A stretch of 64,000 nucleotides of DNA. Source: Candidatus Babeliales bacterium. Lineage in GTDB: Bacteria > Babelota > Babeliae > Babelales > JANWKD01. A model generated the notes under the pieces. That model had not been told where the DNA came from, did not search any database, and saw nothing but the letters and a program-made list of their open reading frames with translations. Both the position numbers and the translations under genes were made by a program. Positions 23,365-31,640 of this stretch are shown here, piece by piece (position 1 is the stretch's first letter; the number at the start of each line of letters is the position of its first letter). The stretch covers positions 81,007 to 145,006 of the forward strand of contig CAVRJO010000001.1 of NCBI GenBank assembly GCA_963722255.1, given 5' to 3'.

Positions 23365-23420
23365 TTCCGAAATATTCTTATGAACACCACCTCCAAAATT
23401 TTCACTTTCCTCTGTGGACC
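23365..23420 (+). repeat. direct repeat copy 1: duplicated 5' end (start codon plus ~13 codons) of the SPFH gene; upstream bracket of the beta-helix gene array
   Basis: ttccgaaatattcttATGaacaccacctccaaaattttcactttcctctgtggac versus 31585..31640 ttccggaatatttttATGaataactcctccaaaattttcactttcctctgtggac; last 32 nt identical; copy 1 reads MNTTSKIFTFLCG then stops after 5 more codons. Confidence 0.7.
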
Positions 23421-23628
23421 TCAAGAAATACGATAGCTCTCATATCTTATGACAAACATTAAGATGCGATCTCTATTTTTTTAAATTTTTAAAAATCTTT
23501 CATTTAGATCTCAAATTATAGTAGATATAGTAAACAGGCATTGTTAATGCTGTAGTACAAAAATTTAATTATTTTACCTAATAACTATTTTGTATAATAG
23601 TCTTTACTATAAAAAAAGGATTCTATAA

Positions 23629-25695
23629 ATGAAGTTCTCTCTTAAAACCTCTTTAAAAGCAATAGTATTGCTTGCTTGCTCTATCACTATGTTTTGTGGA
23701 TTTATTATATCTGAATGTACAAATAATATATATGCTACTAAACAAAAACCTTTTTCAATGGGTCATGGGAATCAAAAATATAGCGTAATTCCTTGTATGC
23801 TAGATCTTAAAAATATAATACAAGCTCTTATTGAACATCATATTCAAAATAAAATAGAAGATGAAATTCCAGAAGAGTTTTTTATTTGCTACAAAACATT
23901 ACTCGAAGGCAAAAATATATTTTTGACCGAAGATTTATTAAAAGCATTAACCTATATAGCTTTGAAACTTGATGAACTCACTCAGTCCAAAGCTCCTCGA
24001 GAAGATGCACCAAATGGGAATCCAATTGTTGGCCCATTAATTGCTTGTGATATTAGTTCGAAAATTATTTTAGTAAATCAAATAATTAACCTTATTAAAA
24101 ATTGCTGTAATCAATTAGAAGAAGATTTTAATCTTACTTTTAGTTTAGTTACTGATTTAAATACTACGATCACAACGTGCATAACTGTCATTACTGCTTT
24201 AGACTTTTCAGCTACTGCGACAGTATTAGCTGATATACAAAATACTCTAACAGCATGTTGCCAAGAGATAGCAAATGAATTTCAACAAACATGGACCATT
24301 CTAGCAGCTGGATTCAATGAAACTTCAACGGTACTCGCTGATATAAAAAATACCATGACCTCATGTTGTGCGAATACTCAACTAAATTTTCAAGGAACAT
24401 TTACTCTCATTACATCTATACAAAATAGCAAGCGGTGTCCTCCTATTTCACTCTGCTCGCCAATTCAAATTATGGCACCAACAACTATTTCTACACCAGG
24501 TTTTTACTGTTTAAATAACGATATTAGTGGTCAAATTGTTATCAATGCAAATGATGTTACACTCGATTTAAATAGTCATACGATTACCGGAGGAGGTATT
24601 GGATCAGGAAGCGGCATTATTGTCAACTCAGGATTTAATAGGCTTATTAAGAATGGAAATATCACTGCATTTGATAATGGTATTCAATGTATAGGAAACA
24701 CTGATACCGTTATAGAAAATCTTATAATCACAAACTGTTTTATTGAAGGTGTTACCATAAATACAGGAACTGCCATTTTTCTAGATTCATTATCAATACA
24801 TAATATATCAGGAATTGGTGTTCATTTTGTTAATGGAAATGATGCAAGTAGTATAAAAAATAGTACCGTAACACAATCTGAACAAGGATTTGTTTTTGAT
24901 TTTATTTATAACAGCTTAATTCAAAATTGCAATGTTCTTGATTGTAGTTCAAATTTAAACATTACTGCAGGAAACGTTGGCGGTTTTATTATCAATAATG
25001 GAAGCTTTATTCAAATTAATAACAGCTCTGTTAAAAACTATGTAGGGCTTCAACGCATAGCAGGGTTTGCATTAGTTAATGCGGTAGAAAACGTTATTTT
25101 TAGTAACTGTACTGCTCAAAATATTGTTGCAACATTGCCTGGACAGGTCGTTTCAATCGCCTTTGGATATATAGCAGGTTTATTCACATCGCATTTAGAA
25201 TTCACTGATTGCTCAGCTTTATCTGTTACTGCTGATCAAATTGCTGTTTGCTTTGAAATAGAAGGCCCCGGAGTAACGCTTGATAAATGTAGCGCCCAAA
25301 TTTGCACATCAAATAGTATTCTTGCCGATGGTTTTCACTCCATAAGCAATAATGTATCTATAAGTTATTGCCAAGCTTATAAATGCAAACAAAACGGCTT
25401 TAATCTAGATTCATTTAACAATAGTACGGTACTTCAATATTGCCAAAGTGCATACAATAATAATGGATTTATCATTCAAACACCTTCCAGTCTGCTTGAT
25501 AATTGCGTTGCATTTAAAAATAATATTGGATTTAATCTTAATATTGCAGGAATCTCCCTTGTACATTGCTTTGCAGCACAAAATACTACTAATTACACAT
25601 TTTTTGCTAATAATGTACAAAATGCAAATACCCAAGTTAATAATGCCGCCCCTCTCCTTACCGGTCCCTTTGCAGGAGCAAACCTATTTATGTAA
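23629..25695 (+). CDS. secreted Cys-doublet-repeat / right-handed beta-helix-like protein, paralog 1 of a tandem array
   Basis: AGGA SD; signal peptide; 4 spaced CC doublets in repeats (...DIKNTMTSCC...); then ISTPGFYCL...VINANDVTLDLNSHTITGGGIGSGSGIIVNSGFNRLIKNG and ~20-25-aa periodic N/G/I/V-rich repeats; conserved C-terminal tail NANTQVNNAAPLLTGPFAGANLFM. Confidence 0.7.
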   Translation: MKFSLKTSLKAIVLLACSITMFCGFIISECTNNIYATKQKPFSMGHGNQKYSVIPCMLDLKNIIQALIEHHIQNKIEDEIPEEFFICYKTLLEGKNIFLTEDLLKALTYIALKLDELTQSKAPREDAPNGNPIVGPLIACDISSKIILVNQIINLIKNCCNQLEEDFNLTFSLVTDLNTTITTCITVITALDFSATATVLADIQNTLTACCQEIANEFQQTWTILAAGFNETSTVLADIKNTMTSCCANTQLNFQGTFTLITSIQNSKRCPPISLCSPIQIMAPTTISTPGFYCLNNDISGQIVINANDVTLDLNSHTITGGGIGSGSGIIVNSGFNRLIKNGNITAFDNGIQCIGNTDTVIENLIITNCFIEGVTINTGTAIFLDSLSIHNISGIGVHFVNGNDASSIKNSTVTQSEQGFVFDFIYNSLIQNCNVLDCSSNLNITAGNVGGFIINNGSFIQINNSSVKNYVGLQRIAGFALVNAVENVIFSNCTAQNIVATLPGQVVSIAFGYIAGLFTSHLEFTDCSALSVTADQIAVCFEIEGPGVTLDKCSAQICTSNSILADGFHSISNNVSISYCQAYKCKQNGFNLDSFNNSTVLQYCQSAYNNNGFIIQTPSSLLDNCVAFKNNIGFNLNIAGISLVHCFAAQNTTNYTFFANNVQNANTQVNNAAPLLTGPFAGANLFM

Positions 25696-25729
25696 GGTAA
25701 TAGAAAAATATACTATATAAGGAATAAGA

Positions 25730-27556
25730 ATGAAGCATACTATCTATAAAAAAATAAAAACAGTTTTGGGCTTTGTAATAATTGTAGTACCACTCATATG
25801 TTATTCACAAACAAACAGCGATTATTTGCATAATCGTGCTCCTCGAATAGATGCGATAGAATTAGCCGATGGAGCTGTTGTAGGACCATTACTTAATTGT
25901 AATTCAGTAAAAGTTTTAGGATTACTTAACATTTTAAAAAAAGACATCAACTCTTGCTGTATTGAGTTGGAAAATGATTTTATAGGAACATTTACGATTT
26001 TATCAGATATAAAAAATACATTTACAGCGTGCTGCACAATAATCCAAAGTGATATTAATGGGACTTTTACAACGTTATCTGATGTTTTAACTACGTTAAC
26101 GAATTGTTGCAATGAAATAACCAATGAATTTAATCAAACATGGACCATTTTAGCAGCTGGATTTTCAAATACATTCACTGCATATTTTGATTTTAAATCA
26201 ACCTTAACAACATGTTGCGATCAAATCGAAACAAATTTTACAAACATATTCATTGCATTAGAAAATCTTTCTGCTATCTGTCAAGGTTCTGTGTGCAACG
26301 CAATTACCATAACTGCACCAGGAACCATATCCATTCCTGGTTCATATTGTCTTGCTAACGATATTATTGGATCAATAATAATTAATGCAAATAATGTTAC
26401 CTTTGACTTAAATAATCATACAATTTCAGGTTCAGGTGCAGGAAGTGGTGCAGGGATTATACTTAATGCTGGCTCCAATCGCGTTGTAAAAAATGGACGT
26501 ATAACCAATATTGATTCTGGGATTGTATGCAATAACAATAACCAAACAATCTTAGAGGGTATTGTTGTTGAAACAGCATTTGTTGAAGGCATAACCATTA
26601 ATAATGGTAATACTATACTGTTAGATTCTTTAATTACCACAAGCGTCCTTGGTATCGGCGTTCACTTTACCGGTAACAACAACGGTACTCTCATCAATAA
26701 TACGACCGTTACTCTCTCCCAACAAGGTTTTGTTTTTGATACTATAACCAATAGTTTAATTAGGAATTGTAACGTTCTTGATTGTAGCACCACCGTAGTT
26801 ACTCCATTAGGAACCACCGTAGGCGGTTTTACTATTATTAATGGTAGCTTTATACAGTTCGAAAACTGCTCTGTCAAAAACTACATTGGAGTTGACTCAG
26901 TGGCAGCATTCTCACTTAATAATAATGTTAATAACGTAATTTTTAAAGCTTGTACTGTGCAAAATATAATTGCAACTATTTCATCTTCGTTTGGATCCAT
27001 AGCTGTTGGTTTTAATTGTGGCGTTACCAATACTATTCAACTTCTTAATTGTTCTGTTTTAGATGCAGCAGCAGATCTATTTGCAGGTGGTTTTTTATTC
27101 ACAGGATCGAACATACAAGCAGAAAATTGTATTGCGCGCCATTTTACTACTTTTACTATTCCTCCTAGCTCTGGCAATAGTATCGGATTTCAAGTTACCA
27201 ATAATAACGTTATACTAAAAAATTGCGAAGCCTATGAATGCGCCCAAACAGGATTTTTCATATCACCCACAGGAACCCTTATTAATGTTTCACTCATTAA
27301 CTGTCAAGCTGCGTATAATAATTCTGGTTTTTCAACGCAATCAGCAGGTACCATTTTTGAACAATGTGTAGCATTTAAAAATGGCACCGGATTTTTTTCG
27401 TCAGTGGTGGGGGTTTCACCTTTCAGATGCTTTTCTACACAAAACACAACTAATTATGGTGGATCCATTGTCAATGTACAAAATGCCAATACCCAAGTAA
27501 ATAATTCAGCGCTTGGACTCACAGGTCCATTTGCTGGTGGTAATTTATTTATTTAA
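25730..27556 (+). CDS. secreted Cys-doublet-repeat / beta-helix-like protein, paralog 2
   Basis: Same architecture as paralog 1; 34-bp spacer; tail NANTQVNNSALGLTGPFAGGNLFI. Confidence 0.7.
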   Translation: MKHTIYKKIKTVLGFVIIVVPLICYSQTNSDYLHNRAPRIDAIELADGAVVGPLLNCNSVKVLGLLNILKKDINSCCIELENDFIGTFTILSDIKNTFTACCTIIQSDINGTFTTLSDVLTTLTNCCNEITNEFNQTWTILAAGFSNTFTAYFDFKSTLTTCCDQIETNFTNIFIALENLSAICQGSVCNAITITAPGTISIPGSYCLANDIIGSIIINANNVTFDLNNHTISGSGAGSGAGIILNAGSNRVVKNGRITNIDSGIVCNNNNQTILEGIVVETAFVEGITINNGNTILLDSLITTSVLGIGVHFTGNNNGTLINNTTVTLSQQGFVFDTITNSLIRNCNVLDCSTTVVTPLGTTVGGFTIINGSFIQFENCSVKNYIGVDSVAAFSLNNNVNNVIFKACTVQNIIATISSSFGSIAVGFNCGVTNTIQLLNCSVLDAAADLFAGGFLFTGSNIQAENCIARHFTTFTIPPSSGNSIGFQVTNNNVILKNCEAYECAQTGFFISPTGTLINVSLINCQAAYNNSGFSTQSAGTIFEQCVAFKNGTGFFSSVVGVSPFRCFSTQNTTNYGGSIVNVQNANTQVNNSALGLTGPFAGGNLFI

Positions 27557-31363: not shown

Positions 31364-31520
31364 CAATATAAGTAAAGCTCCATTTTTGGTTTTAAATAAA
31401 ATAAAAAATGGAGCTTCTTAAGTTAAAAATTAATTTTTATAATAATTTGCATGCCCTAACACACGATTGTCAAAAGATTTGCACATTTTACTTCAAAGAA
31501 GTATTATTCTTATTAATGTA

Positions 31521-31570
31521 AGTTTGACAAATTAAACACTATGTCATCACGAGGAACGAAGTTCCGTGGT
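31521..31570. repeat. half-copy (B) of the 1417..1519 palindromic element, inverted, abutting direct repeat copy 2
   Basis: Reverse complement of 31521-31570 matches 1470-1519 (cactgggtcaccacgg...cctcgtgatgacatagtgtttaat). Confidence 0.55.
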
Positions 31571-31584
31571 GACCCAGTGAAAAA

Positions 31585-31640
31585 ATTCCGGAATATTTTT
31601 ATGAATAACTCCTCCAAAATTTTCACTTTCCTCTGTGGAC
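31585..31640 (+). repeat. direct repeat copy 2 (the true 5' end of the SPFH gene)
   Basis: See copy 1 at 23365..23420. Confidence 0.7.

What the first reader, a model, noticed from the sequence alone, without database searches (positions are those of the whole stretch)
23365..31640. The beta-helix gene array is bracketed by ~56-bp direct repeats of the SPFH gene 5' end, with half a palindromic element at the junction
A sequence containing the start codon and first ~13 codons of the SPFH/band-7 gene occurs twice. One copy is at 23365-23420, upstream of the array, and reads MNTTSKIFTFLCG then stops after 5 more codons. The other is the real gene start at 31585-31640. The copies share ~50 of 56 positions, and the last 32 nt are identical. 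The 8.2 kb between them is exactly the four-gene array plus its promoter region. Immediately upstream of the second copy (31521-31570) is an inverted half-copy of the palindromic element found at 1417-1519. This is the footprint expected if the array arrived, or is maintained, as a cassette by recombination at the 5' end of the SPFH gene. A duplicated target that long is far more than a transposase target duplication and is more like attL/attR of a site-specific integration or an illegitimate or segmental duplication.
Basis: seen in the sequence. Interest (0 to 1): 0.7.

Follow-up and report, generated by a model that had tools for sequence, protein, structure and literature searches.

The report
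Leftover gene start marks a rearrangement
The upstream 57-base copy is the dead stump of the SPFH (prohibitin-like) gene's original start, left when an 8-kb block of four surface-protein genes came to lie between that gene and its old promoter; this is an ordinary rearrangement scar and shows no sign of a dedicated mobile-element mechanism.

Summary
The repeat is real. It is 57 nt long, at 23363-23419 and 31584-31640, with 52/57 bases identical and the last 30 identical. The window holds two copies where none is expected by chance. Three other assemblies of the same Babeliales (Dependentiae) species carry the same structure.

Relatives show which state came first. Two metagenome contigs (L011, L012) have rodA, an 82-nt spacer and SPFH, with a single copy. 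That is the predicted empty site. Copy A keeps the ancestral rodA-SPFH spacer, including a promoter-like block shared with three relative lineages. Copy B shares only positions -17 to +40 with that ancestral locus. A REP-like hairpin lies just before it.

In L001 the orthologous four-gene array lies downstream of SPFH. In L014 it lies next to ProRS. Neither array is flanked by an SPFH fragment.

No recombinase, terminal inverted repeats or att-like reuse of the site was found.

Best reading: a recombinase-independent local rearrangement swapped the array and the SPFH block, probably by duplication followed by loss of the redundant copies. The 57 nt is the overlap between the stump of the old copy and the start of the new one. 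A one-step insertion, or homologous integration of foreign DNA, is not excluded. Interest is low to moderate.

The parts
22176..23288 (+). rodA/ftsW (SEDS) gene. It is the conserved left neighbour of SPFH in relatives.
   Evidence: Pfam FTSW_RODA_SPOVE 2e-84. Orthologues lie upstream of SPFH in L001, L008, L010, L011, L012 and L020.
23289..23362 (+). Ancestral rodA-SPFH spacer. It holds a conserved promoter-like block: TTGCTC at 23302-23307, a 17-nt spacer, then TAATAT at 23325-23330.
   Evidence: The 91 nt before ATG 23380 are 78% identical to the SPFH upstream spacers of L011, L010 and L001 (z = 8-12 against shuffles; alignment A4). The promoter assignment is inferred from the block shared with those three lineages. 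The consensus scan did not flag it.
23363..23419 (+). Copy A: the stump of the original SPFH start (-17 to +40). Homology to SPFH ends after ...CTCTGTGGAC.
23380..23436 (+). Relic ORF of 18 codons (MNTTSKIFTFLCGPQEIR*).
   Evidence: Read from the sequence. No terminator-like site lies between it and array gene 1.
23420..23502 (+). Junction 1 filler of unknown origin.
   Evidence: No match elsewhere in the window or in any fetched locus except the same-species assemblies.
23503..23628 (+). The array's own upstream (promoter) region. It is weakly alignable to the corresponding ~130 nt in L001 and L014.
   Evidence: Alignment A7. L001-L014 homology starts ~130-190 nt upstream of gene 1.
23629..25695 (+). 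Array gene 1 (688 aa, beta-helix).
   Evidence: Pfam Beta_helix, weak. Orthologues in L001 and L014 are 63% aa identical.
25730..27556 (+). Array gene 2 (608 aa).
27584..29317 (+). Array gene 3 (577 aa).
29333..31363 (+). Array gene 4 (676 aa).
31375..31416 (.). Terminator-like hairpin after the array. L017 has one in the same place.
   Evidence: Inverted repeat I14. Fold -14.3 kcal/mol, z = -5.6. Alignment A6.
31417..31525 (+). Array-associated downstream flank. It is loosely alignable to L017 up to about 31525.
   Evidence: Alignment A6. BLAST-short finds no significant match.
31526..31577 (+). REP-like hairpin unit with its outer extension. This is the 'half palindrome', and it lies at junction 2.
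   Evidence: Pattern matches. 28/29 match to 1495-1523(-). It folds on its own, with a 9-bp plus 4-bp stem, z = -2.7. It is absent from the loci of other lineages.
31584..31640 (+). Copy B: the working SPFH start (-17 to +40).
31601..32401 (+). SPFH/Band_7 (prohibitin-family) gene, intact.
   Evidence: Pfam 2e-29. 1701 homologues, the best being Dependentiae/Babeliales.
1418..1507 (.). Full palindromic element: two REP-like units in inverted orientation.

Best explanation
Copy A is a relic, not a working site. In the ancestor, SPFH followed rodA directly, preceded by an ~85-nt promoter-bearing spacer. In this species the order of the SPFH block and the four-gene beta-helix array was swapped by a local rearrangement that needed no dedicated recombinase.

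The most likely route is duplication followed by loss:
1. A segment spanning SPFH and the array was duplicated in tandem. In L001 the array lies just downstream of SPFH, so such a segment existed. The new join fell between the REP-like hairpin downstream of the array and position -17 of SPFH.
2. The redundant copies were then lost. The first SPFH copy was deleted from codon 14 onward, leaving the 57-nt stump on its old promoter. The second array copy was deleted too.

On this view the 57 nt is simply the overlap between what survived of the old copy (up to +40) and what the new copy included (from -17). Selection for an intact SPFH gene explains why the surviving join lies just upstream of its ribosome-binding region.

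Consequences, all inferred:
- The old SPFH promoter now drives an 18-codon relic ORF and probably reads into the array.
- SPFH must be transcribed by read-through from the array or from a new promoter in 31417-31583.
- The two repeats, with 30 nt identical, could allow rare homologous deletion that removes the array precisely and restores the ancestral arrangement.

Shown: the relic sits at the ancestral position with the ancestral flank, empty sites exist in relatives, the orthologous array sits on the other side of SPFH in L001, and there are no mobility genes. Inferred: the duplication-loss route and the transcriptional consequences.

The confidence of 0.6 is for the whole statement. That copy A is a rearrangement relic at the ancestral SPFH position I put at about 0.85; the specific duplication-loss route at about 0.45.
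For: - The repeat is real and far beyond chance. It is present in four independent assemblies.
- Empty site: L011 and L012 have rodA, 82 nt, then SPFH, with one copy. The rodA...SPFH...ruvB-yebC-yicC backbone is old, seen in L008 and L020.
- The spacer upstream of copy A is 78% identical to the SPFH upstream spacers of L011, L010 and L001 (z = 8-12). The sequence upstream of copy B is unrelated beyond -17 (z <= 1.4).
- The two copies are each other's closest relatives: 37/40 coding positions, against 25-32/40 to any other lineage. The duplication therefore arose within this lineage.
- L001 has rodA, a 224-aa ORF, SPFH, a 124-aa ORF (o124), then orthologous array genes 1-4. The same blocks occur in the opposite order.
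- The block holds only four beta-helix paralogues with their own promoter region and terminator. There is no integrase, transposase or terminal inverted repeat.
- A REP-like hairpin lies 6 nt from junction 2.
- Duplication followed by random loss, leaving non-coding remnants, is an established route to gene-order change in mitochondrial genomes (PMC5745709, PMC4223735).
Against: - No intermediate with two full SPFH or array copies was seen.
- No remnant of a second array copy lies downstream of the 119-aa ORF (o119), around 34721-34970.
- The source of the filler at 23420-23502 is unknown.
- All five differences between the copies lie in the first 27 nt (P about 0.02). Simple decay of a stump does not predict this.
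- The array has a third context in L014 (ProRS on its left), although that array is 89% identical to L001's. The array may therefore move on its own, rather than SPFH being duplicated.
- What lies downstream of the array in L001 is unknown, because the contig ends there.
Confidence: 0.6

Rival explanations
1. One-step insertion. The array segment, with ~210 nt of upstream flank and ~220 nt of downstream flank including the REP-like hairpin, was copied or moved from another locus into codon 14 of SPFH. The mechanism would be illegitimate or replicative recombination (template switching, or repair of a widely staggered break). This event duplicated 57 nt of the target.
For: - The empty site in L011 and L012 differs from the window by exactly this block plus the 57-nt duplication.
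- The array occupies three different left contexts in three lineages, with breakpoints always ~130-210 nt upstream of gene 1.
- There are no traces of a second array or SPFH copy.
- A hairpin-forming element lies at one junction.
Against: - A 57-bp target duplication is far longer than any transposase makes, and no dedicated enzyme is evident.
- No microhomology is evident at the junctions.
- In L001 the array is already next to SPFH, so a local swap is more economical than two independent arrivals within 3 kb.
Confidence: 0.22
2. Homologous (Campbell-type or homology-facilitated) integration. Incoming DNA from a related strain already carried the array joined to a slightly diverged SPFH 5' fragment. 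Crossover occurred inside the 30-nt identical stretch.
For: - The copies are mosaic, with 5 differences in the first 27 nt and none in the last 30 (P about 0.02). This is what a crossover between diverged partners would give.
- Recombinational exchange of this region between strains is evident. L009 differs from the window at 2 of 11,330 nt across rodA-array-SPFH-HepT, but by 6-18% just beyond.
Against: - It only pushes the origin of the array-SPFH join back into another strain.
- At the five variable sites, neither copy consistently resembles one relative lineage.
- 30-57 nt is a very short substrate for homologous recombination.
Confidence: 0.1
3. Site-specific integration. The 57-mers are attL and attR of a cassette integrated by a recombinase encoded elsewhere. 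The insert supplies a replacement 5' end for SPFH, as SXT/R391 elements do at prfC.
For: - Direct repeats lie exactly at both borders and the target gene stays intact.
- The empty site in relatives has one copy.
- An identical core with a diverged arm resembles att sites.
Against: - No integrase, excisionase or transposase lies in or beside the block.
- Orthologous arrays in L001 and L014 carry no SPFH fragment and no shared end sequence beyond their promoter and terminator.
- The tyrosine recombinase near the L015 array is a housekeeping XerD/XerC type without flanking repeats.
- The cargo is four paralogous chromosomal genes whose order is conserved across lineages.
Confidence: 0.06
4. Chance similarity, a dispersed intergenic repeat, or an assembly artefact.
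For: None.
Against: - 0.00 matches are expected in shuffles.
- There are only two copies in 64 kb, and none in relatives apart from their own SPFH starts.
- The structure is identical in four assemblies from different samples, with contigs running through both copies.
Confidence: 0.01

Closest known systems
Tandem duplication-random loss (duplication followed by loss of redundant copies), the standard model for gene-order change in animal mitochondrial genomes (PMC5745709, PMC4223735)
   Same: Two blocks swap order without changing orientation. A short non-coding remnant of the lost gene copy stays at the old position. No dedicated enzyme is needed.
   Different: This case is in a bacterial chromosome, where the model is rarely invoked. 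Only a 57-nt stump survives, and no intermediate with both copies has been seen.
attL/attR of integrative elements that rebuild the end of their target gene, for example SXT/R391 ICEs at the 5' end of prfC (PMC2791158), or islands and phages at tRNA 3' ends or icd (own knowledge)
   Same: Direct repeats bracket the insert. The target gene stays intact because one repeat supplies its end. The native promoter is separated from the gene. Relatives have an empty site with a single copy.
   Different: There is no integrase or excisionase. The cargo has no mobility genes. The same cargo elsewhere lacks the repeat. At 57 nt with a clustered 9% divergence, it is not a conserved att core.
REP/BIME palindromic units at the join points of spontaneous tandem duplications in enterobacteria (own knowledge: Shyamala et al., EMBO J 1990; not retrieved here)
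   Same: A short GC-rich intergenic hairpin unit lies at the novel join. The same unit occurs elsewhere as an inverted pair.
   Different: Only one partner of the join is a REP-like unit; the other is unique SPFH sequence. No RAYT-type transposase was seen in the window. Only two loci with the unit are known.
Gene-fragment relics (pseudogene stumps) left by deletions in host-associated bacteria (own knowledge)
   Same: A start codon and a few codons survive with their promoter, followed by an early stop.
   Different: Here a full working copy of the same gene lies 8.2 kb downstream, and the stump marks a transposition rather than gene loss.

Membership tests
Site-specific integrative element (attL/attR) | Direct repeats at both borders of the inserted DNA | tested here: met
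   57-nt repeats at 23363-23419 and 31584-31640.
Site-specific integrative element (attL/attR) | An empty site with a single copy in related genomes | tested here: met
   L011 and L012 have rodA, 82 nt, then SPFH, with one copy.
Site-specific integrative element (attL/attR) | An integrase or recombinase encoded in or next to the element | tested here: not met
   The block holds only four beta-helix genes, and the neighbours are rodA, SPFH and HepT/MNT. The nearest mobility genes are a group II intron and an IS3 fragment more than 11 kb away.
Site-specific integrative element (attL/attR) | The same att sequence or end structure wherever the element occurs | tested here: not met
   The arrays in L001 and L014 have other neighbours and no SPFH 5' fragment.
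Site-specific integrative element (attL/attR) | An excised circular form and a restored attB in the population | not testable with these tools
   No read-level data are available. All four assemblies show the integrated form.
Transposon or IS insertion | A short (2-14 bp) target duplication, terminal inverted repeats and a transposase | tested here: not met
   The duplication is 57 nt. No inverted repeats lie at the block ends and there is no transposase.
Duplication-loss rearrangement scar | The remnant lies at the ancestral position with the ancestral flank, in the same orientation as the working copy | tested here: met
   The flank of copy A is colinear with rodA-SPFH in L011, L010 and L001, z = 8-12.
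Duplication-loss rearrangement scar | A relative shows the two blocks in the opposite (presumed earlier) order | tested here: met
   L001 has SPFH, a 124-aa ORF, then the array. Polarity is inferred, not proven.
Duplication-loss rearrangement scar | An intermediate with both copies, or remnants of the second lost block | tested here: not met
   No array remnant lies downstream of the 119-aa ORF (o119), and no relative has two SPFH copies. The sampling of relatives is thin.
REP/BIME-type palindromic units | A short imperfect hairpin unit, intergenic, occurring singly and in inverted pairs, in many copies per genome | tested here: inconclusive
   The hairpin and the single/paired forms are met. 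Only two loci occur in 64 kb. The genome-wide copy number and any RAYT gene could not be checked.

The most novel reading that the evidence does not exclude
The four-gene beta-helix array is a discrete cassette that relocates within Babeliales chromosomes without carrying its own recombinase. It would be moved by a trans-acting enzyme or through its flanking hairpin. The 57-nt repeats would then act as a reversible switch: recombination between them would excise the array precisely and put SPFH back on its native promoter. The near-identity of the whole rodA-array-SPFH tract between strains that are 6% diverged elsewhere would reflect recent spread of this arrangement by recombination.
Probability: 0.08. 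Interest if true: 0.6.

Novelty: new member of a known kind. Interest (0 to 1): 0.27.

Why it matters
This is a clean, datable example of how gene order changes in Dependentiae, a poorly studied phylum of intracellular bacteria. Both the scar and the unrearranged state are preserved in relatives. It shows that a fast-evolving, probably secreted, protein array shifts position around a conserved housekeeping backbone (rodA-SPFH-ruvB). It also warns annotators that the 18-codon ORF and the 286-aa extended SPFH ORF are artefacts of the rearrangement. It does not reveal a new mechanism.

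Tried and rejected
- Chance or dispersed repeat: rejected by shuffles and by the copy count.
- Assembly artefact: rejected by three further assemblies that are collinear through both copies.
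- Integrase-borne island: the only tyrosine recombinase near an array (L015) scores as housekeeping XerD/XerC. No shared k-mer of 13 nt or more links the left array border to the spacers around and beyond that recombinase.
- Allele idea, that copy A resembles L010/L011 while copy B resembles L001: the five sites give a mixed pattern, so it was dropped.
- Known RNA in either junction: no Rfam match reaches a gathering score.
- Consensus promoter and terminator scans: uninformative in this AT-rich DNA.
- Search for the same species in JGI metagenomes with the exact 29-mer: 0 hits.
- The species-representative genome scan gave only two distant loci.
- The array-protein scan of metagenomes gave one known contig and one distant paralogue, L023.
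- Extending L009 leftward through UvrA failed, because the exact protein is not on record. This used the last look-up.
- PDB sequence search with array gene 4: no hit.

Full report
**Observation**

The two copies exist as described. The repeat finder lists one two-copy direct repeat of 57 nt, 23363-23419 and 31584-31640, 8221 nt apart and 91% identical (D15; sequences). A degenerate 57-mer and the exact 29-mer each hit only these two places in the window, with 0.00 hits expected in dinucleotide-preserving shuffles.

The five differences lie at positions 8, 15, 23, 25 and 27, so the last 30 nt are identical.

Copy A contains ATG 23380 and reads MNTTSKIFTFLCGPQEIR, then a stop. Copy B contains ATG 31601, the true start of a Band_7/SPFH protein (Pfam 2e-29). 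All 16 close homologues start at the corresponding Met. The 286-aa ORF from 31541 is therefore an artefact.

Between the copies lie, in order:
- 209 nt of upstream sequence;
- four paralogous beta-helix genes (688, 608, 577 and 676 aa);
- a strong terminator-like hairpin at 31375-31416;
- 167 nt of downstream sequence.

**Organism and assemblies**

SPFH homologues place the window in Dependentiae/Babeliales (L020 is titled as a Candidatus Babeliales MAG). The window's own SPFH, rodA and array proteins are on record in two ~0.9-Mb contigs and in short-read assemblies.

Three other assemblies are collinear with the window through both copies. L009 (ENA ERZ25039473), L018 (ERR11748453) and L019 (ERR10755947) are 99.5-100% identical to it. 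The structure is real and fixed in everything sampled. A scan of JGI metagenomes for the 29-mer found nothing.

**Which state is ancestral**

L011 and L012 come from two JGI samples and have SPFH 93% aa and rodA 88% aa identical to the window. They show the rodA stop, 82 nt, then the SPFH ATG, with one copy of the sequence.

Other relatives keep rodA upstream of SPFH with different small inserts:
- L010 has two small minus-strand genes.
- L001 has a 224-aa ORF.
- L008 has a 419-aa minus-strand ORF.
- L020 has ~780 nt.

L008 and L020 continue with ruvB-yebC-yicC, as the window does at 36271-38921. The rodA...SPFH...ruvB backbone is therefore old.

In the multiple alignment, the rodA 3' end, the spacer and the first 40 coding nt of copy A are colinear with L011, L012, L010 and L001. 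Homology stops exactly after ...CTCTGTGGAC (A4).

Quantitatively, the 91 nt before ATG 23380 are 78% identical to the SPFH upstream spacers of L011, L010 and L001 (z = 8-12 against shuffles). The 91 nt before ATG 31601 show nothing beyond the shared 17 nt (z <= 1.4).

The conserved spacer holds a block reading TTGnnn, 17 nt, then TAnTnT in the window and those three lineages. In the window it lies at 23302-23330. I read it as the native SPFH promoter; this is an inference.

So copy A sits at the original SPFH position with the original upstream region. Copy B is a start that has been re-joined to foreign upstream sequence at -17.

The two copies are closer to each other (37/40 coding positions) than to any relative (25-32/40). 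The duplication therefore happened inside this lineage.

**Where the array is in relatives**

The four-gene array is a conserved unit. Orthologues of genes 1-4 occur in the same order in L001, L014/L015/L016 and L017. Their contexts differ:
- L001 has rodA, the 224-aa ORF, SPFH, a 124-aa ORF (homologous to window 34361-34720), then the array. The array is on the other side of SPFH.
- L014 has ProRS, the array, then a convergent beta-helix gene. L015 continues with a 141-aa ORF, an XerD-like gene and the orthologue of the window's symporter gene at 6253-7695.

The L001 and L014 arrays are 89% identical over 6.9 kb. Homology starts ~130-190 nt upstream of gene 1, and the left flanks are unrelated.

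None of these arrays has an SPFH 5' fragment at a border, and L001 has only one copy of its own SPFH start.

**Junction 2 and the palindrome**

The sequence 31527-31577 matches the reverse complement of one side of the element at 1418-1507, apart from a 9-nt loop. Folded alone it is a complete hairpin, with 9-bp and 4-bp stems. The element at 1418-1507 is two such units in inverted orientation.

It is therefore a single REP-like unit, not a broken palindrome. It ends 6 nt before copy B.

Downstream of the array terminator, the window is loosely alignable with L017 up to about 31525. The L017 contig ends just after that point. The hairpin thus sits exactly between array-associated flank and SPFH -17. 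Whether it took part in the join or inserted later cannot be decided. It occurs in no other lineage's locus and matches no Rfam family.

**Mobility genes**

There are none in or beside the block. The window does hold a group II intron (4388-6127) and IS3-type fragments (11305-12187), but these are more than 11 kb away. The recombinase near the L015 array scores as XerD/XerC, and no att-like repeat flanks that region.

**Explanation**

The evidence fits a rearrangement scar. A local, recombinase-independent event swapped the SPFH block and the array. It left the first 57 nt of the old SPFH copy on its promoter.

I favour duplication of a segment spanning SPFH and the array, with the join at the hairpin and SPFH -17, followed by loss of the redundant copies. 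There are three reasons:
- L001 shows the blocks adjacent in the opposite order.
- Orientation is preserved.
- A stump at the old position is what this route leaves.

This is the route accepted for mitochondrial gene-order change (PMC5745709, PMC4223735).

Points against this route:
- No intermediate or second-array remnant was found.
- The array's third context in L014 suggests it may move by itself.
- The five differences cluster in the first 27 nt (P about 0.02).

That clustering would fit gene conversion, or a crossover with diverged incoming DNA. Exchange of this region between strains is indeed visible. L009 differs from the window at 2 of 11,330 nt from 21601 to 32930. Beyond that it differs by 6% (ruvB to the fifth beta-helix gene) and 16-18% (33513-34806). 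The switch falls at 32931, inside the MNT antitoxin gene.

Rivals are therefore kept:
- one-step insertion with a 57-bp duplication (0.22);
- homologous integration of foreign DNA already carrying the join (0.10);
- true site-specific integration as at prfC for SXT (PMC2791158), which fails two of its defining features (0.06).

**Consequences (inferred)**

- The old promoter now drives the 18-codon relic and, with no terminator-like site before gene 1, probably adds transcription into the array.
- SPFH depends on read-through past the array terminator or on a new promoter. A consensus-level candidate lies at 31478-31507.
- The 30-nt identical stretch could support rare precise deletion of the array.

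**Verdict**

Noticed in passing
window 21601-32930 versus 32931-41102 (L009 1-20801): A second strain (L009) differs at only 2 of 11,330 nt across rodA-array-SPFH-HepT. It is 6% diverged over ruvB-yebC-yicC-beta-helix and 16-18% diverged around 33513-34806. The switch falls inside the MNT antitoxin gene. This looks like recent recombinational exchange of one of the two tracts between diverged strains.
   Followed up: partly
window 4388-6127 (-): A group II intron with an RT/maturase ORF (Pfam) and Rfam D1-D4 hits lies just 3' of the sodium:solute symporter gene at 6253-7695. In L015 that side of the symporter orthologue holds an XerD-like gene, a 141-aa ORF, a beta-helix gene and the four-gene array.
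   Followed up: partly
window 32419-33113 (-): A HepT/MNT (nucleotidyltransferase) toxin-antitoxin pair lies directly after SPFH. It is absent from that position in L011, L001 and L008.
   Followed up: no
window 33212-33772 (-); L009 11622-13544: The ankyrin-type genes after SPFH differ between strains. The window has one 186-aa ORF, 40% identical to the L011 ankyrin gene. L009 has two ankyrin genes of 314 and 303 aa.
   Followed up: no
window 1418-1507 and 31526-31577: A REP-like hairpin unit (GTCAYYRCGAG...CGTGGYRAC) occurs once as an inverted pair and once singly. It was not seen in loci of other lineages. Its genome-wide copy number is unknown.
   Followed up: partly
window 38958-40706 (+): A fifth, distant beta-helix paralogue (26% identical to array gene 4) lies after yicC. 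It is conserved in that position in L008 (53% aa), so the family is older than the array.
   Followed up: partly
window 24036-24432, 25946-26163, 27746-28048, 29806-30112; L023 6734-8527: The N-terminal halves of the array proteins carry repeated Cys-Cys motifs of ~25-36 aa (...IKNTLTxCC...). A contig from the same JGI sample as L011 has a gene with more than ten such repeats.
   Followed up: no
window 20751-20983; L001 1345-2818: The two tRNA genes that are adjacent in the window are separated in L001 by ~1.5 kb carrying a 373-aa ORF with no Pfam match.
   Followed up: no
window 11305-12187 (-): IS3-type transposase fragments (rve domains) lie next to ankyrin-repeat genes.
   Followed up: no
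rodA-SPFH spacer in L010, L001, L008 and L020: The rodA-SPFH spacer is an indel hot spot. It is 82 nt in L011 and L012, holds two small minus-strand genes (one HI1420-like) in L010, a 224-aa ORF in L001, a 419-aa minus-strand ORF in L008, and is ~780 nt in L020.
   Followed up: partly
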